A stretch of DNA of 64,000 bases, taken from sequence record OL631479.1. The stretch is one strand, 5' to 3'. Numbering within the stretch: the first letter of the stretch is position 1; every line of letters starts with the position of its first letter. This stretch comes from Escherichia phage ECML-10. This document shows, piece after piece, positions 25,823 to 45,534 of the stretch. A program made the translations under genes and the position numbers. The notes beneath the pieces were generated by a model. The model was not told the DNA's origin. It was given only the letters and a program-made list of their open reading frames with translations, and searched no databases.

Positions 25823-26950
25823 GTGTCCAGAAAACTTACAACAGATGAGTTTATAAAGAGGGCAAAAGCAGTTCATGGAGATAAGTATGATTACTCTAAG
25901 GTTGAGTATGTAAATGCCTGCACCAAGGTTATAATTATCTGCCCATATCATGGAGAATTTGAACAAGCTACCCACCAACACCTTGCAGGACGAGGCTGCC
26001 GGGAATGTGGAAAGCTAAAAATGGCACAAAGCCACATTATACCACATAAGGAGTGGTTGAATGTTATCCAAGAGGTCAATCCTTATGTCGAAGTGATTGG
26101 AGAAATAATAAGCTGCAGAACAAAAGTGCCGTGCCGCTGCAAAATTTGCAGTCATGAATGGTCAGCAATGCCTTATCTTCTTAAACAAGGACATGGGTGC
26201 CCTAGATGCGGCAAGCTAAAATTCGCACAAAGCAGAGCTATAGCCCATACCGAGTGGGTCGAGGACATAACGAAGAAAAATACATATATTGAAATAGTAG
26301 AAAGGGTTAAAAATAGCGATACACCAGTATTGGCACGATGCAAAATTTGTAGTCATGAATGGTTAGCAAGACCATCCCATCTTAAACGAGGGCATGGGTG
26401 CCCTAGATGTAAAGGCAATGCAAAGAGATCCCATGTGGAATGGGTAGGGCATATAAAGGTTGTCAATCCAAGTATTAAAGTGCTTGGAAAAATTAAAAAC
26501 GGCAGTGCAAAAGTATTATGTAGGTGTAAGATTTGTGATTATGAATGGTCTCCTGCTCCTATTAGGCTCAAGCAAGGACATGGGTGCCCTAGATGTGCTA
26601 ACTACGGCTTTTTATCGTACAATCACGGCAAACTTTACATTATGGTTGATGACTTAGAAGTACCAACACTTATGAAGATCGGTATTAGCGTCAGTGTCGA
26701 AGAGAGAAAAGATAGGATATTGAAAAGTGCCAAAAGGGCAGGGGTAGGTATTTATGATCTCTACCTGGCGAAAACGTGGGAAGGATCAACTCAAAACATG
26801 GCAGATTTAGAAAAATCTGTGCATAAGGCCTTCAGCAAGTATAAAATAAACTTCCCTGTAAAATTTGATGGTAGCACAGAATTCTTCTACTACAGGCCTG
26901 AAGTGTTTGACACGGTGGAAGAAGTATACAGGAAGATTTGTGGTAAATGA
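25823..26950 (+). CDS. T5orf172-domain (GIY-YIG superfamily) putative homing endonuclease with four N-terminal Zn-ribbon repeats
   Basis: Four CxxC...GHGCPRC modules; C-terminal KLYIMVDD...LMKIGISVSVEERKDRI resembles the T5orf172 domain; GTG start. Confidence 0.6.
   Translation: MSRKLTTDEFIKRAKAVHGDKYDYSKVEYVNACTKVIIICPYHGEFEQATHQHLAGRGCRECGKLKMAQSHIIPHKEWLNVIQEVNPYVEVIGEIISCRTKVPCRCKICSHEWSAMPYLLKQGHGCPRCGKLKFAQSRAIAHTEWVEDITKKNTYIEIVERVKNSDTPVLARCKICSHEWLARPSHLKRGHGCPRCKGNAKRSHVEWVGHIKVVNPSIKVLGKIKNGSAKVLCRCKICDYEWSPAPIRLKQGHGCPRCANYGFLSYNHGKLYIMVDDLEVPTLMKIGISVSVEERKDRILKSAKRAGVGIYDLYLAKTWEGSTQNMADLEKSVHKAFSKYKINFPVKFDGSTEFFYYRPEVFDTVEEVYRKICGK
26104..26610 (+). repeat. intragenic tandem repeats (about 190-200 nt period) encoding the Zn-ribbon modules
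   Basis: Near-identical stretches GCAAAATTTG(C/T)AGTCATGAATGG and GGACATGGGTGCCCTAGATG recur three times. Confidence 0.6.
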
Positions 26951-39438: not shown

Positions 39439-39767
39439 TGAAGATTGACCCGTTACTGAAGGCTCGTGCAGAAAAAGCGTACACCATTAAGCTGACCAAC
39501 CTGGTTCCTACTTGTCATCCAGATGTAGGTTGGCCCGAAGGTTTGGTGGAGGGAACTGTAACAGCTGCATACCTTCCTAACATCAAATACCTCATGGAGA
39601 TCTTAGAGATGGATGAGGAAACTGCAGAACAGTTCCAGTTGGATATGAAACAGAGTGGGACTCTGGTTATTCACGGGTGGTATAATACTAAAGATGCAGA
39701 AGACCCTCTGGTAACTTCTAATCTGGCATATGAAATCTTAGGGCCTTTGAACCTGGAGGAAGACTAA
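39438..39767 (+). CDS. small acidic protein
   Basis: ORF track; ATGA overlap; MKIDPLL start. Confidence 0.5.
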   Translation: MKIDPLLKARAEKAYTIKLTNLVPTCHPDVGWPEGLVEGTVTAAYLPNIKYLMEILEMDEETAEQFQLDMKQSGTLVIHGWYNTKDAEDPLVTSNLAYEILGPLNLEED

Positions 39768-41538: not shown

Positions 41539-41838
41539 ATGTCTACAAAGACGGCTAAATACTCCTACATGCCATCAACCTCTGCAGAGGTAGATTTTAG
41601 TTTCGATGTGTTTCCACTGTTTGAGGTGGTTCTGGCATACCCAACAATACTATCTACTCCGGAATCACTTGTGCCTGTTAAGTTGCAGAACGCCATGCAT
41701 TCTATGCACTACAACAATAAATGCAGGCACAGATGGTGTCAGGACGAGGAAAAAGATCTGGATAGTTTGAGAGATTTTGACAGTCACCTTTTGACACCTT
41801 TCAGCTACTCCAACCTTGATAAGCCATCATGGGTATAG
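41539..41838 (+). CDS. hypothetical protein
   Basis: Start moved to ATG 41539 (SD GAGGTGG). Confidence 0.45.
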   Translation: MSTKTAKYSYMPSTSAEVDFSFDVFPLFEVVLAYPTILSTPESLVPVKLQNAMHSMHYNNKCRHRWCQDEEKDLDSLRDFDSHLLTPFSYSNLDKPSWV

Positions 41839-41862
41839 CAAAATATCAAATTTAAGACACCT

Positions 41863-41890
41863 AGGACGCTCTGTGGCGTCCTTTTCTTTA
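41863..41890 (+). terminator. rho-independent terminator
   Basis: GGACGC-TCTGTG-GCGTCC followed by TTTTCTTT. Confidence 0.6.
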
Positions 41891-42051
41891 TCTGGTGCAC
41901 GATTGCATACCTTGGACAGATAATCTCCTTACAGAGCGTTTAAGAGCTTCCTACAAACAACTCTCTTTTTCGAGCGTAGCGAGAACGCACGTCCGTTTTG
42001 ACCCAAATCCCCATACGCTCGGATTTTAACCAAACCCTCGCGGCGTTTCTA

Positions 42052-42080
42052 TTGACACATTACCGCTCCAGTGATAGTAT
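42052..42080 (+). promoter_or_regulatory. sigma70-type promoter (TTGACA-17-TAGTAT)
   Basis: -35 at 42052-42057, -10 at 42075-42080. Confidence 0.45.
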
Positions 42081-42198
42081 CCACACATAGTTTGTAGAAT
42101 ATGGAATACACAATGAGAACATTGTCCGAAGTTTTAGTAGTGATCCTGATGATCATTACGTCCATAGCGGCTGTTGCCGGAATACTCACGGGTGGAAC

Positions 42199-42411
42199 AT
42201 GATCAACACGCATGCACCTGAAGAGACATCCGAAGGAGTGACCATATGTCCATTGTCTGAGCCAGTGAAAGAGGAAAACTTCGATTCTGAAGATTCTCCA
42301 TCTTCGCTCCAGGTAGATCCTGAGGCTGATGACCTAACGTGGGAAGACATCGTAGACATCTGGTTCTCCATTATGCCTGAGCACGAAGAGTTCAGAGGTG
42401 GTAGACTATGA
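42199..42411 (+). CDS. hypothetical acidic protein (70 aa)
   Basis: ORF track; weak SD. Confidence 0.4.
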   Translation: MINTHAPEETSEGVTICPLSEPVKEENFDSEDSPSSLQVDPEADDLTWEDIVDIWFSIMPEHEEFRGGRL

Positions 42412-42532
42412 AGCACCGAGCCCACACAGGTTCCTCATGCTAAAGCATGGCCTGAAGAGGCAAACGTGTATAATTCCAGTGCATTGGAACGTATAAAACC
42501 CTGTTCACACTCTCATTTCCAGAGGAGATTTC

Positions 42533-42748
42533 ATGAAGATAGAAATATTTGGTGGAGCTGACAACACTCGTGGCCTGATTTACCTTGAATTCGATGAAAC
42601 ATACCTGCCAGAGGTGTTAAATATAGACTCTGTTGCTGAGGCTTTGGGAGTAAACCCTAAAGAACTCCACTCTTGTGCTGAGATCGATGGTTGGGAAGAG
42701 ACCATGAACATTGATTTCAGTGAAGTAGAGGATGAACCGCTGGACTGA
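42533..42748 (+). CDS. small acidic protein, MK(V/I)K family member
   Basis: MKIEIFGG start; SD GGAGA. Confidence 0.5.
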   Translation: MKIEIFGGADNTRGLIYLEFDETYLPEVLNIDSVAEALGVNPKELHSCAEIDGWEETMNIDFSEVEDEPLD

Positions 42749-44329
42749 CACACAATTAGCTGCCCGGCTAAAGTGCTGGAAGCACCTATAACACATCTTT
42801 CAACTAAATTTCCCACCACCACAATCACTTACCTCCCACACATGACTGTTTGCTTGTTTAGTGAGCAGTCATGCCTTGACATTCTTGCCTATCCTGATAA
42901 AATTAAGTTCTTCTCTTTTCTTTTACCGAGTAATTCGGGTTTTCTGTTCTCTTCGGTTTGAAGGGGTATGGAGATACACCTGAGTGAACAGGGTGAACAA
43001 CCGAACATTTGGCTATGGCATTAGCATGGCGAAGCGGACGGGTGACGAAAGAGGGGCCGGAGGACACCAGTCACTGCCATATGATATATGGGTGATAACC
43101 TGAAGAGTCTGAATAAGTGTTTAAGTACCAGTCAGAGGAAAAGGTGAATGGTAGCCGAAGGGGGAGGGGGTTTCTTGTATCTTTAATTTGTATATTATGT
43201 ATACATTCGTAAACCAATCTCATCTGAATCTGTTTACCACACAAAGTGGATAGAGACAAATATTACCTATTAAACTTGAATTATTTATAGAAAATACTAC
43301 AACACTACTTAAGTATTTGATTTTACACACAAATCCTGCAGATATTCACCCCCCATATTTAACATACTTGTAACATATTCCATACTCTACCTGACCGATC
43401 AACTCACCCAACTACATCCTCCATATTTCCCCTGTCTGTACTACCCCTGCCCAGCCGGGAGTCCCGTCATATCTGGCTTTCCAGCAAATATCACACCCAC
43501 AAATATCATTGCCTGAAGAGGGTTTCATCCCATAATACATGCCTTACCTGAAGAGCGCTTCATATACCCCGTAAATTTTTTAATTGACACCCTCCCCGCC
43601 GCCGGAGGGGGTTGGCTTTTCCCACACAGACCCGAAGAGCCAGCCAGAAATATCTGAACAGGTCCAGCTATGCCACGATTTTGACCTGACCTACAGGAGT
43701 GCTTCCCTGTCAGGAGCCGGTAGCGACTGGAGTGCTGCCAGGCGGACGAAATGGGAATACTTCTCATTCTTATAATAATTCTCAAATATCGAGGCAGTGA
43801 GGCAAATTAATAGGTGAGGCCGTTCACACAGTGGCACAACATTTGCAACCTATCTTGTGTGGGGGAATGAGAATACCTATCATTGTGAGAATAGTTATCA
43901 TTACGGGCAATTTAACATAATACCCATTATGCGCACCACTGGCGATCCATACAGGGATTGATAACATGAGTTACTGTTTATGCATATAACAATTATATTT
44001 CTTACTATTTGTGTGGGATATAGTTAGCAGCCAATAGATTAGATATTGACCTGTAGACTTCTGACCGTCCAGACGTCTAAACGCCCACACAACAAGGCTT
44101 ATACATACATCGCTGAATGTAAACAGGGCCGCAAAAATGCTACCATACCAGATTGTAAATTTTTCATACAGCACTTGACAAAGAGGAGAAAAACTTGTCT
44201 GACACTTTAGACACAATAGTGACATAATGGTGACACACTGGGCATACTCAACACACTGGATACAATAACAGTTGTTACTATTGCATGCTTCACTGTTCAC
44301 GTATAGATTGTTTACACAGAGATGATAAG

Positions 44330-44620
44330 CCATGCCATTCGTTTGCATGACAATAATTAACTTGTTTACAATCTTTCACTGGCTATGCCAGGTGACCTTT
44401 GGTCACCCCTTCGGGTGTTTCTATGACATAATATAAAAGCAGGGCAACTATTAGAAGATCTATAGTTGCCTTGCTTGTTATGTCACGATTAACTAAATAC
44501 AAGGCAACTATGATCTGATTAATAGTTTGCAGACAAACTATCACGGGGGTGATGGTTACTGCTTTTATATTATGTCGCGACTCCGTCGCGCCATGCCATT
44601 CGTTTGCATAGTTGCCTTAT
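44330..44620. repeat. complex of direct and inverted repeats (GGCAACTAT iterons, 18-bp inverted pair, CCATTCGTTTGCAT direct pair)
   Basis: GGCAACTAT/ATAGTTGCC four times; GACATAATATAAAAGCAG at 44424-44441 with reverse complement at 44561-44578; CCATTCGTTTGCAT at about 44334 and 44596. Confidence 0.55.
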
Positions 44621-45234
44621 TGTTACGAATAAAACAATTGCATTGTTAATGATTTCTTATCTTTCTCTTAGTCATCTAATGATTCCAGTCAGTATAGTAA
44701 TGTACAGTAAACATTAGACGACTAAAGATTTCTCTGTTTATTATAACTCACCGTTATAATTTCGAGCTGTTTACGAAAAATGTTGACATCCTAGCCGATT
44801 TATGTTATGCAGTTTACACGAATAATTATTTTATGCAGGTATTGACTATTCCGTTATTCTATGGTTGGAATAAATACTTAGCAGGCTATAGACTGGTGAG
44901 CGTACGTAAATTCTGAGATCTGGCGGCTATAGTTATACTCGATTTTTCACGTAGAACACGCTTTTGTGGTTATGTAAGTGCATGAATTATAAGAATTTTT
45001 ATTTGTTGACAAGATATTGAAGATATGCATCAGGTTAAAATTTATGCAATAGCGGCATTACGTGCAATTTTGGAAGGAAAAGCGTGTAAAAATGGCCCTG
45101 CTACCACACAATGAAAGGTTATGCAATAGCTATTTTACATGTATATTTGTACAGTGTGTGGGATTGATGGCTCGTCAATTATTCCACTTGCCAGGTAGGG
45201 CCGTTTGTGGTAGGAAAAGAGAAGACAAAAAGAA

Positions 45235-45251
45235 AGGGGCTTTAAGCCCCT
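45235..45251 (-). terminator. rho-independent terminator for minus-strand block
   Basis: AGGGGC-TTTAA-GCCCCT; minus-strand reading is followed by TTTCTTTTT. Confidence 0.55.
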
Positions 45252-45270
45252 GACCGTTCATCTTGTTGTA

Positions 45271-45534
45271 TTATTTGTTGCTCATCCAGTTTTCCCAAGC
45301 TGCCTGATAATCTGCCTCACTACGGCGGATCTCTTCTTGTTCTTCAAGTCGGATCTCTTCTTCCAGGTACCCCAAGATGTCAGCCTTTTTGGTCTGGCGT
45401 AGCATCCAGTCATCTTTTTTGCGGGTAAAGATCTTATAAGCTTTCTCGCAAACCTCTTTTTTGCTACCTTTCTGGACTTCCAGAACACGATAAGCCATAT
45501 ATTGAACTAGTTTGAGCTGGTCAAGACGTTTCAT
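45271..45534 (-). CDS. hypothetical protein (87 aa)
   Basis: SD AAAGAGGAAAAA before ATG 45534. Confidence 0.55.
   Translation of the reverse strand: MKRLDQLKLVQYMAYRVLEVQKGSKKEVCEKAYKIFTRKKDDWMLRQTKKADILGYLEEEIRLEEQEEIRRSEADYQAAWENWMSNK

What the first reader, a model, noticed from the sequence alone, without database searches (positions are those of the whole stretch)
42217..43555. Clustered exact 9-mer CCTGAAGAG (five copies in 1.4 kb)
CCTGAAGAG occurs at 42217, 42451, 43099, 43512 and 43547, with a near copy CCGAAGAG at about 43635. I found only one other copy in the window (about 16768). The last two copies are direct repeats 35 bp apart in similar context (CCTGAAGAG(G/C)G(T/C)TTCAT). 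By my rough estimate a given 9-mer is expected about 0.25 times per strand in 64 kb, so the clustering looks non-random. A binding site or a repeated RNA motif are possible.
Basis: seen in the sequence. Interest (0 to 1): 0.5.

Follow-up and report, generated by a model that had tools for sequence, protein, structure and literature searches.

The report
Oriented 9-mer beside phage terminal repeat
The repeated word CCTGAAGAG is a real, conserved, one-directional signal in the non-coding DNA just before the terminal repeat of an rV5-like E. coli phage genome, it recurs in the same place in related phage genera, and its job (probably a protein-binding site used at the genome end) is still unknown.

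Summary
CCTGAAGAG occurs exactly at the five stated positions. It is the most clustered 9-mer in the window and in the whole rV5 genome.

The window is a Vequintavirus. Published termini and the HdK5 record place the 459-bp direct terminal repeat (DTR) at 43741-44199. The cluster therefore fills the non-coding 1.3 kb just left of the DTR, with all copies pointing at it.

Four sites (42451, 43099, 43512, 43547) are almost invariant in 20 relatives. The near copy at 43631 is exact in most relatives. The copy at 42217 is just in-frame Pro-Glu-Glu codons, as are all copies outside the cluster.

The same word, or CCTAAAGAG / CCTGAAGTG, recurs left of the DTR in at least five lineages outside Vequintavirus that share no alignable DNA here. 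It is always on the + strand (28:0; 0.65 expected). Six lineages lack it.

Its function is not established. My best guess (0.38) is an oriented protein-binding DNA site that helps end processing or packaging, like the CCTAAAG arrays beside the T7 terminal repeat. A promoter-box role and an RNA-level role remain possible. It has not been described for this group.

The parts
42451..42459 (+). Site A, exact CCTGAAGAG, in the intergenic space before the last + strand ORF (42533-42748). A TATAAT hexamer follows 9 nt later (42469-42474).
   Evidence: All 9 columns are invariant in 19 relatives. Its 3' flank GCAAACGTG(T/C)ATAAT resembles the 'M2' sites of PhiTE, CR3 and L166.
43099..43107 (+). Site B, exact copy inside the near-invariant 310-bp block.
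   Evidence: One variant (CCTGAAAAG) in 20 sequences.
43512..43520 (+). Site C, exact copy, preceded by the AAATATCA pair. A CATAAT hexamer follows 10 nt later (43531-43536).
   Evidence: Invariant in 17 sequences, while the bases just 5' of it vary (TTG, TCA, TTT).
43547..43555 (+). Site D, exact copy 35 nt after C. Small inverted repeat GAAG-AGCG-CTTC.
   Evidence: Two single-sequence variants in 17 sequences.
43631..43639 (+). Site E, decayed here to CCCGAAGAG but exact in 15 of 17 relatives. It lies 102-110 nt before the left DTR edge and is preceded by TTTCCCACACAGA.
   Evidence: It is equivalent to the 'M1' sites of L166 and PhiTE, which are also preceded by TTTCCCACAC.
42217..42225 (+). 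Copy F. NOT part of the conserved set: in-frame Pro-Glu-Glu codons of ORF 42199-42411.
   Evidence: Present only in the window and in Murica. Frame checked coordinates.
43741..44199 (.). Direct terminal repeat (DTR) of the virion DNA, by homology. The physical left end is at 43741 and the right end at 44199.
   Evidence: The first 459 nt of the HdK5 record equal its last 459 nt and map here with 1 mismatch per 40 nt. Published DTRs: 458 bp (PMC6563267) and 459 bp (PMC7471380). Several other records start or end at these points.
43731..43748 (+). Conserved left-edge sequence AGTGCTGCCA|GGCGGACG (cut site by homology).
   Evidence: CTGCCAG|GC or GTGCTAG|ACGGAC lies 168-213 nt upstream of the island in 15 of the 24 loci scanned; five of the nine that the strict pattern missed carry a looser TTAGACGGAC / CTAAACGGAC form at the same place.
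43910..43936 (+). 27-nt island ATTTAACATAATACCCATTATGCGCAC inside the DTR, conserved across the subfamily. Used as the anchor for cross-genus comparison.
42862..43172 (+). Near-invariant block (8% variable columns against 31% around it). It starts with the promoter TTGACA-16-TGaTAAAAT (42876-42903), is G-rich, and ends in GGGGGAGGGGG+TTTCTT. Candidate genus-specific ncRNA or DNA element. Contains site B.
   Evidence: The + strand folds with z = -1.9 and the - strand with z = 0. No Rfam match. No E. coli match.
43486..43508 (+). Pair of AAATATCA words just upstream of site C. Shared with KPP-1 and PhiTE.

Best explanation
CCTGAAGAG (extended form CCTGAAGAG[G/T]C) is a conserved, orientation-specific cis-element of the non-coding genome-end region of Vequintavirinae. 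In replicating concatemers this region is the junction 'right end - 459-bp terminal repeat - left end'. Here the motif copies occupy the 1.3 kb on the right-end side, and every copy points towards the repeat. I think it acts on DNA as the recognition site of a sequence-specific protein, either the small terminase subunit or another junction-binding factor. That protein would help find, orient or process the terminal repeat during T7-type packaging. The motif would be an accessory signal, not the cut site. The cut-site role fits the separately conserved edge sequence CTGCCA|GGCGGAC and the 27-nt island inside the repeat. Shown: the motif exists, is non-random, is under purifying selection, sits next to the terminal repeat, is polar, and recurs across genera. 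Inferred: that it is read as DNA, that a protein binds it, and that the purpose is end processing or packaging.
For: Statistics: top 9-mer cluster in the window and in the whole rV5 genome.
Selection: in 20 distinct Vequintavirus sequences, 5 of 45 motif columns vary against 31% of neighbouring columns. For sites A, C, D and E it is 4/36 against 38% (P = 3e-4). Conservation begins sharply at the first C.
Position: the DTR maps to 43741-44199. KPP-1, in another genus, has the same layout and is called T7-type by PhageTerm.
Cross-genus recurrence, excluding Vequintavirus: in the 1.5 kb left of the DTR the motif family occurs 28 times on + and 0 on - (0.65 expected per strand). The exact 9-mer occurs 9 times against 0.11 expected. 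About 7 of these sites are independent. No other DNA aligns between these genera here.
DNA rather than RNA: in KPP-1 and L131 one exact copy lies upstream of a transcription start, in the -35/spacer of TTGACCTGAAGAG-N10-TATACT, directly after a strong terminator. It is therefore rarely transcribed.
Co-variation of motif with lineage: PhiTE uses CCTAAAGAG and L153 uses TCTCTGAAGG x3-4, both + strand only. This is as expected for a co-evolving protein and its site.
Precedent: T7 has 11 CCTAAAG copies in the first 340 nt and 5 at the right end, all in one orientation, around its 160-bp terminal repeat. These include ACCTAAAGAGGG.
Against: No experiment or transcript map exists for this region, and nothing shows that a protein binds.
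Six lineages with the same DTR edge and island have no copy within 1.6 kb, so the motif is dispensable for end formation.
Distances to the DTR edge are loose (63-1500 nt) and the spacing between copies is not conserved, except C-D.
The function of the T7 repeats is itself unknown (my own knowledge), so the analogy carries no mechanism.
The polarity equals the local direction of transcription on both sides of the DTR. In Mydovirus the copies inside the DTR are on the - strand. That fits RNA-level or promoter-linked roles equally well.
Relative to the locally conserved stretch 43455-43590, sites C and D are not significantly more conserved (2/18 against 26%, P = 0.11).
Confidence: 0.38

Rival explanations
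1. Promoter or regulator box. The motif is the upstream (-35/-30 region) element of a small family of promoters at the genome end, or the operator of a regulator acting on them. This would be comparable in layout to a T4 MotA box placed about 10 nt upstream of a -10 hexamer. Its orientation would be fixed by the direction of transcription.
For: Site A is followed after 9 nt by TATAAT and then by an ORF with a good Shine-Dalgarno sequence. Site C is followed after 10 nt by CATAAT. KPP-1 and L131 have TTGACCTGAAGAG-N10-TATACT. KPP-1 has TTGACCTGAAGTG-N10-TATTCT. L159 has TTGACCTGAAGTG-N10-TATACT. The M2-type sites of PhiTE, CR3 and L166 keep YATAAN 10-11 nt after the motif. Motif polarity follows transcription on both sides of the DTR.
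Against: Sites B, D, E and most sites in other genera have no -10 hexamer. Over 33 dereplicated sites, -10-like hexamers are not enriched at gaps of 7-12 nt (5 against 5.1 expected) and only weakly at gaps of 9-10 nt (5 against 1.8). The '-35' TTGCCT of site C is TCACCT in 3 relatives, and its -10 is broken in L007. The homologous PVP-SE1 promoter lacks the motif. The motif occurs nowhere else upstream of genes in 138 kb of rV5. One conserved copy sits in a terminator hairpin.
Confidence: 0.22
2. RNA-level element. The motif works in the sense transcripts that run towards the terminal repeat. It could be a short hairpin (CCU-GAAG-AGG) or a single-stranded protein or RNase recognition site that affects termination, read-through, processing or stability.
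For: All copies are in the sense orientation of local transcription. In Mydovirus the motif forms the top of a canonical terminator, GGAGCCUGAAGAGGCUCC plus a U-run. About half of all sites are followed by GC, which gives a 4-bp GCCU/AGGC stem with a GAAG loop. Eight of nine bases match the lambda nutL boxB core CCUGAAGA (boxB sequence from my own knowledge). Site B lies in a candidate ~265-nt ncRNA.
Against: Sites B, D, E and all '...GAG-TC' sites cannot form the hairpin. No covariation was found (covariation term ~0). There is no Rfam match even at E <= 5. Promoter-embedded copies lie upstream of the start site and behind a terminator. No boxA-like sequence was seen upstream of the copies on reading the sequence.
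Confidence: 0.22
3. Replication-origin iterons. The copies would be binding sites for an initiator near a genome-end origin, with the promoter-driven G-rich block supplying a primer or R-loop.
For: The repeats are direct and in one orientation. There is a strong promoter followed by a G-rich (GC skew +0.31 to +0.36) invariant block that ends in GGGGGAGGGGG-TTT. DnaA-box-like TTTTACACA and TTTCCCACA words lie nearby.
Against: Spacing is irregular (35, 84, 413 and 648 nt) and not conserved. There is no adjacent AT-rich unwinding element and no initiator gene. The invariant block has no counterpart in A73 or KPP-1, although the motif does.
Confidence: 0.07
4. No function. The copies would be chance, codon-driven occurrences, or decaying remnants of local duplications.
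For: Copy F and every copy outside the cluster are in-frame Pro-Glu-Glu codons. C and D look like a partly decayed 35-nt duplication.
Against: Sites A-E are non-coding. The shuffles and scan statistics argue against chance. The 9-mer is perfect while the flanks are unrelated, with a sharp 5' conservation boundary. The word recurs in genera with no alignable DNA here (Poisson P ~1e-11).
Confidence: 0.03

Closest known systems
Short-repeat arrays (SRL/SRR) flanking the 160-bp terminal repeat of phage T7
   Same: Both are phages with an exact short DTR. Both carry a 7-9-nt word repeated in a single orientation next to the repeat. The words are nearly the same: T7 CCTAAAG, including ACCTAAAGAGGG at 39698, against CCTGAAGAG(GG). 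PhiTE and CR3 use CCTAAAGAG exactly.
   Different: The T7 copies are dense (about 13-54 nt apart in the array after the repeat) and lie on both sides of and inside the repeat. Here they are 35-650 nt apart and only on the left side in Vequintavirus. T7 is an unrelated podovirus with its own RNA polymerase. The function of the T7 arrays is also unknown (my own knowledge).
Terminase recognition repeats of pac/cos sites (lambda cosB R sites, P1 pac hexamers, SPP1 pacL/pacR boxes)
   Same: These are several short oriented protein-binding repeats near, but not at, the cleavage site. They co-evolve with the terminase.
   Different: Binding to terminase is untested here. The copies extend more than 1 kb from the cut. 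Six related lineages lack them. The comparison rests on my own knowledge of those systems.
T4 middle promoters (MotA box about 12 bp upstream of a -10 hexamer)
   Same: A 9-bp asymmetric box replaces or overlaps the -35 region at a fixed 9-10 bp from a -10-like hexamer at sites A and C and at three Mydovirus sites.
   Different: Only a minority of copies fit this layout. There are no such promoters elsewhere in the genome. No MotA/AsiA homologue was looked for.
Lambda nutL boxB RNA hairpin (GCCCUGAAGAAGGGC)
   Same: It shares CCUGAAGA. Some copies form a short stem with a purine loop, and the orientation is sense to transcription.
   Different: The loop has 4 nt, not 5. Three of the five local sites cannot form the stem. 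There is no boxA. No Rfam match.
Plasmid and phage origin iterons
   Same: Direct repeats in one orientation in a non-coding control region.
   Different: The word is shorter, the spacing is irregular, and there is no adjacent initiator gene or AT-rich element.

Membership tests
T7-type terminal-repeat-flanking short repeats (SRL/SRR) | The phage has exact, short direct terminal repeats (non-permuted genome). | tested here: met
   HdK5 has a 459-bp prefix equal to its suffix, mapping to window 43741-44199. Published DTRs of 458 and 459 bp. KPP-1 has a 514-bp DTR and is called 'T7 type'.
T7-type terminal-repeat-flanking short repeats (SRL/SRR) | A short word repeated many times in one orientation immediately beside the terminal repeat. 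| tested here: met
   Five copies, all on the + strand, lie within 1.3 kb left of the DTR. T7 was checked for comparison.
T7-type terminal-repeat-flanking short repeats (SRL/SRR) | Arrays on both sides of, and within, the terminal repeat, closely spaced (about 13-54 nt in T7). | tested here: not met
   No copy with <=1 mismatch occurs between 43640 and 45880 on either strand. Spacings are 35-648 nt.
Terminase pac/cos recognition site | Bound by the small terminase subunit and required for packaging initiation. | not testable with these tools
   Needs binding and mutational experiments. The absence of the motif from six lineages with the same DTR edge argues that it is at most an accessory.
Sigma-70 or activator-dependent promoter element | A -10 hexamer at a fixed distance downstream of every copy. 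| tested here: not met
   Met for A and C (TATAAT at +9, CATAAT at +10) but not for B, D or E. Across 33 sites there are 5 with a -10-like hexamer against 5.1 expected.
Sigma-70 or activator-dependent promoter element | Found upstream of genes across the genome. | tested here: not met
   All rV5 copies outside the cluster are in-frame PEE codons inside genes.
Lambda-type nut site (boxA + boxB) | A stable hairpin with a 5-nt GNRA-like loop, plus boxA a few nt upstream. | tested here: not met
   The loop would be GAAG (4 nt). The stem is absent at B, D and E. No boxA-like sequence is visible in the flanks.
Replication-origin iterons | Regularly spaced repeats next to an AT-rich region and an initiator gene. 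| tested here: not met
   Spacings of 648, 413, 35 and 84 nt vary between relatives. The flanking ORFs have no Pfam match.
Known RNA families (Rfam 15, including hammerhead CUGANGA cores) | A covariance-model match. | tested here: not met
   No match at the gathering threshold in the window. The only match at E <= 5 in 41800-45400 is a chance RAGATH-13 hit elsewhere.
Type III toxin-antitoxin pseudo-antitoxin repeats (as in related phage PhiTE) | Tandem ~36-nt units that are similar over their whole length. | tested here: not met
   C and D are 35 nt apart, but only 17 of the first 20 nt match and the rest is unrelated. There are only two units. No comparison with the ToxI sequence itself was run.

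The most novel reading that the evidence does not exclude
CCT(G/A)AAGAG would be a polar 'end-pointer' shared by unrelated T7-type terminal-repeat phages: T7 itself (CCTAAAG / CCTAAAGAG) and the myovirus subfamily Vequintavirinae. It would be read either by a common enterobacterial host factor or by convergently evolved machinery. Like KOPS for FtsK or Ter for Tus, it would tell a tracking enzyme (terminase, replisome or RNA polymerase) which way the terminal repeat lies, or stop that enzyme before it. The copies converge on the repeat: + strand on the left, - strand inside or to the right in Mydovirus.
Probability: 0.1. Interest if true: 0.8.

Novelty: new variant of a known kind. Interest (0 to 1): 0.5.

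Why it matters
rV5-like phages are common in E. coli phage collections and in therapy work, including EdH4 and the BASEL Vequintavirinae. Yet the rV5 genome paper labels this 2.6-kb region only as 'non-coding', and I found no analysis of it in the papers I searched.

This work gives window coordinates for the terminal repeat. It defines a conserved edge sequence and a 27-nt island that locate the repeat in most Vequintavirinae tested (the island in all 24 loci, the edge in 15-20 of them), and it identifies an oriented motif that marks the right-end side.

If the motif is a packaging or end-processing accessory, it matters in three ways. It would be needed for engineering these genomes: rebooting, deletions near the ends, and cosmid-like vectors. 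It would give a handle on how myoviruses with T7-type ends recognise their termini. It would also offer a second, independent system for asking what the long-unexplained T7 end repeats do.

Tried and rejected
- Rfam, at the gathering threshold and at E <= 5: nothing relevant.
- tRNA/tmRNA: none.
- Hammerhead core (CUGANGA fits CUGAAGA): no stem I or stem III partners by inspection, and no Rfam match.
- RNA structure conservation: the covariation term is ~0 for site A, the invariant block and the C-D region, because the sequences are too similar.
- A small RNA starting at a site-C promoter with D as its seed: the -35 and -10 are not conserved, insertions of 19-70 nt occur before the hairpin, and the hairpin is a poor terminator.
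- Fur-box and Pho-box look-alikes in and beside the DTR: the best matches (14/19 and 13/18) are no better than elsewhere in the window. Dropped.
- Generic IMG/VR scan for two motif copies 15-45 nt apart: returned only unrelated coding PEE repeats. A wasted scan.
- Exact-context scans of IMG/VR and metagenomes: only 2 + 4 extra Vequintavirus contigs.
- Distant blastn and tblastn of the flanking 71-aa ORF: nothing outside the genus.
- The 101-aa 'transcriptional regulator' as a synteny anchor: it sits elsewhere in phage 4MG. Its only Pfam hint is a sub-threshold GapR-like domain.
- Host origin of the region: no E. coli genome match.
- Enrichment of -10 hexamers after the motif: not significant overall.
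- Coding explanation for A-E: no conserved ORF covers B-E. The small ORFs in the invariant block are broken by stop or missense changes in relatives.
Full report
**1. Observation**

CCTGAAGAG is present exactly at 42217, 42451, 43099, 43512 and 43547, all on the + strand. There are none on the - strand. The near copy is CCCGAAGAG at 43631-43639.

Dinucleotide shuffles of the window give 0.42 copies on average and never 7. The word was picked after looking, so I scored every 9-mer for its densest 1.4-kb cluster.
- This word ranks first in the window.
- Markov order-1, -3 and -5 simulations reach five copies in 0/200, 0/200 and 1/200 runs.
- In the complete rV5 genome (137,947 bp, loci L013-L015) it is again the single most clustered 9-mer. 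Five of its eight + strand copies lie within 1.18 kb.

**2. What the window is**

The region is 92-96% identical to 121 Vequintavirus (rV5-like) records. Nothing outside that genus matches, even at low stringency.

Genes on the + strand end at 42748. Genes on the - strand end at 45271. Between them is a ~2.5-kb stretch without credible ORFs, at the turning point of cumulative GC skew. The rV5 genome paper labels the same stretch only as 'non-coding' and never mentions repeats.

**3. The genome ends lie inside this gap**

- Korf et al. report 458-bp terminal redundancies for the vequintaviruses EdH4 and HdK5 (PMC6563267).
- In the HdK5 record the first 459 nt are identical to the last 459 nt. 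The two ends map to window 43741 and 44199 with one mismatch in 40 nt each.
- Other records start or end at the same two points.

The direct terminal repeat (DTR) is therefore window 43741-44199. The motif cluster occupies the non-coding DNA immediately to its left, which is the right end of the unique sequence. The last site is about 100 nt from the edge.

**4. Which copies are real sites**

In 12 relatives, four sites are always present: A 42451, B 43099, C 43512 and D 43547. The 'near copy' E (43631) is an exact CCTGAAGAG in 11 of the 12. Copy F (42217) is present only in this window and in Murica.

F, both copies outside the cluster here, and the three outside the cluster in rV5 are all in-frame Pro-Glu-Glu codons of long ORFs. 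They are ordinary coding occurrences.

In 20 distinct sequences, 5 of 45 motif columns vary, against 31% of the other columns between 42380 and 43740.
- Leaving out B, which lies in an invariant block, the figure is 4/36 against 38% (P = 3e-4).
- Conservation starts abruptly at the first C. The bases just 5' vary (GG/GA, TTG/TCA/TTT, TTA/TTG, GA/GG).
- About 10 nt on the 3' side are conserved.
- Against the locally conserved stretch 43455-43590 alone, C and D are not significantly better conserved (P = 0.11).

Spacing between sites changes through insertions and deletions, except for the 35 nt between C and D.

**5. Beyond the genus**

KPP-1 (Mydovirus) has a published 514-bp DTR, called T7-type by PhageTerm (PMC9862379). 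It has the same layout of convergent small genes around a gap that holds the DTR. Within 7.5 kb it has three exact copies (0.06 expected, P = 3e-5) plus a near copy. TTGACCTGAAGTGTCAGCC there resembles site E, ACCTGAAGAGTCAGCC.

Low-stringency alignment of the window against KPP-1 and A73 finds almost nothing except a 27-nt island inside the DTR, at window 43910-43936.

I used that island as a search pattern. The sequence at the left DTR edge is also conserved (CTGCCAG|GC or GTGCTAG|ACGGAC) in 15 of the 24 loci. Five more loci show a looser TTAGACGGAC-like form at the same place. Where present, it lies 168-213 nt upstream of the island.

With Vequintavirus excluded, the counts are as follows:

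| Zone | Motif family CCT[AG]AAG[ATC]G, + / - | Expected per strand | Exact 9-mer, + / - | Expected per strand |
|---|---|---|---|---|
| 1.5 kb left of the DTR | 28 / 0 | 0.65 | 9 / 0 | 0.11 |
| DTR zone | 0 / 12 (Mydovirus, two conserved positions) | 0.24 | 0 / 7 | 0.04 |
| Right of the DTR | 1 / 4 | 0.57 | 0 / 1 | 0.10 |

About seven of the exact sites are independent.

Six lineages have no copy. One of them (L153) instead has TCTCTGAAGG three to four times, on the + strand only. PhiTE uses CCTAAAGAG.

The motif is therefore an old, polar, lineage-variable and dispensable feature of the right-end side of the concatemer junction.

**6. Contexts**

Across genera the motif appears in several settings:
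- At the top of a canonical terminator hairpin, GGAGCCUGAAGAGGCUCC plus a U-run (Mydovirus).
- Overlapping the -35 and spacer of good promoters, TTGACCTGAAGAG-N10-TATACT.
- As a pair: M1 (CCTRAAGAG-TCCCACTTG, preceded by TTTCCCACAC) and M2 (CCTRAAGWG-GCRRACCTGTGYATAAC), in PhiTE, L166 and CR3.

Window site E matches M1 and site A matches M2. The extended consensus is CCTGAAGAG[G/T]C.

A -10-like hexamer follows 9-10 nt after the motif at A, C and three Mydovirus sites. Over 33 dereplicated sites this is not enriched at gaps of 7-12 nt (5 against 5.1 expected) and only weakly at gaps of 9-10 nt (5 against 1.8). Half of the sites can form a 4-bp stem with a GAAG loop. The others, including B, D and E, cannot.

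**7. Interpretation**

The motif is functional in the evolutionary sense. How it works is not shown.

I favour a DNA-level protein-binding site that assists recognition or processing of the terminal repeat (0.38), for four reasons:
- Its position is tied to the DTR across genera.
- At least one conserved exact copy lies where it is rarely transcribed: upstream of a start site and behind a terminator.
- The word changes by lineage, as protein-and-site pairs do.
- T7, the model for this packaging type, has the nearly identical word CCTAAAG in one orientation around its own terminal repeat. I checked this in the T7 record: 11 copies in the first 340 nt and 5 at the right end, including ACCTAAAGAGGG.

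The cut sites themselves are better candidates for the essential signal, because the edge sequence and the island are conserved more widely than the motif is.

The main weaknesses are these. The motif is absent from some lineages. Its distances are loose. Its polarity coincides with the direction of transcription on both sides of the DTR, which fits a promoter or regulator box (0.22) or an RNA element (0.22) just as well. Iterons (0.07) and chance or duplication remnants (0.03) are unlikely.

**8. Comparison with known systems, and novelty**

The closest known thing is the SRL/SRR short-repeat arrays of T7. The features met are an exact short DTR and an oriented word beside it. The feature not met is dense arrays on both sides of and inside the repeat.

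It fails the tests for a nut site, for iterons, for a general promoter element, for any Rfam family, and for PhiTE-type pseudo-antitoxin tandem repeats.

I found no description of it in the rV5 paper or in the searches I ran. I rate it a new variant of a known kind, of moderate interest.

Noticed in passing
window 42862-43172: A ~310-bp block that is almost invariant in 20 genomes (8% variable columns), better conserved than the neighbouring genes. It starts with a near-consensus promoter, TTGACA-16-TGaTAAAAT, has a G-rich + strand, and ends in GGGGGAGGGGG-TTTCTT. It is specific to the genus. It has no Rfam match, no E. coli match and no conserved ORF. It is a candidate ~265-nt non-coding RNA or a DNA element.
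   Followed up: partly
window 43741-44199, 43731-43748 and 43910-43936: The 459-bp direct terminal repeat can be placed in the window by homology. Its left-edge sequence (CTGCCA|GGCGGAC) is recognisable in most Vequintavirinae loci scanned, and an internal 27-nt island (ATTTAACATAAWACNNNTTATRCGCAC) was present in every locus recovered with it (CR3, PVP-SE1, PhiTE, KPP-1, A73 and IMG/VR contigs). Together they can be used to locate the termini in unannotated genomes.
   Followed up: yes
window 44200-44240: Immediately after the right DTR edge there are four TGACA(C/T)/GACAC words about 10-11 nt apart. HdK5 has a similar array although the sequence here is otherwise poorly conserved. This may be a protein-binding array at the right cut. 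A resemblance to Pho boxes was not above background.
   Followed up: partly
window 44329-44625: Dense repeats to the right of the DTR. There is an exact 20-nt direct repeat, GCCATGCCATTCGTTTGCAT (44329 and 44590). There is a perfect 18-nt inverted repeat (44425-44442 / 44559-44576). GGCAACTAT / ATAGTTGCC occurs four times in both orientations.
   Followed up: no
window 42222-42272 and 44372-44422; L138 next to site A: A 51-nt imperfect inverted repeat (78%) straddles the DTR. The left arm starts inside motif copy F, within ORF 42199-42411. In IMG/VR contig L138 the same palindrome-rich segment (…CCCGAAGGGGTGACC…GGCATAGCC) sits right after site A. This suggests a small mobile or recombining element associated with the motif.
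   Followed up: partly
window 43752-43902; L001 5085-5120, L002 5070-5103, L012 2607-2640: Three copies of TG(A/G)GAATAnnTnTCATT lie inside the DTR. Some GenBank records (navn, magaca, pangalan) annotate a 34-36-nt 'repeat_region' here without comment. A Fur-box resemblance (14/19) is no better than elsewhere in the window.
   Followed up: partly
window-wide; e.g. 42421, 42835, 43237, 43325, 43622, 44084: CCCACACA and its complement occur 7 + 7 times in the window and CCACACA 13 + 16 times, several-fold above expectation. TTTCCCACAC precedes motif sites in several genera. This may be a second regulatory word.
   Followed up: no
window 25987-26595 (ORF 25823-26950): Three to four tandem coding repeats of ~190-200 nt at 68-71% identity. 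They account for the second-ranked clustered 9-mer, TGGGTGCCC.
   Followed up: partly
GenBank MG0656xx records: Nineteen records labelled 'Campylobacter phage' (several marked UNVERIFIED, unannotated) are 94-96% identical to this E. coli phage genus. They are probably mislabelled or contaminant assemblies.
   Followed up: no
window 42409-42566: The reading frame of ORF 42199-42411 stays open for about 50 codons past its TGA stop. It runs through site A in the CCT-GAA-GAG frame. In rV5 the corresponding ORF 162 is annotated as longer (306 nt). No evidence for read-through was sought.
   Followed up: no
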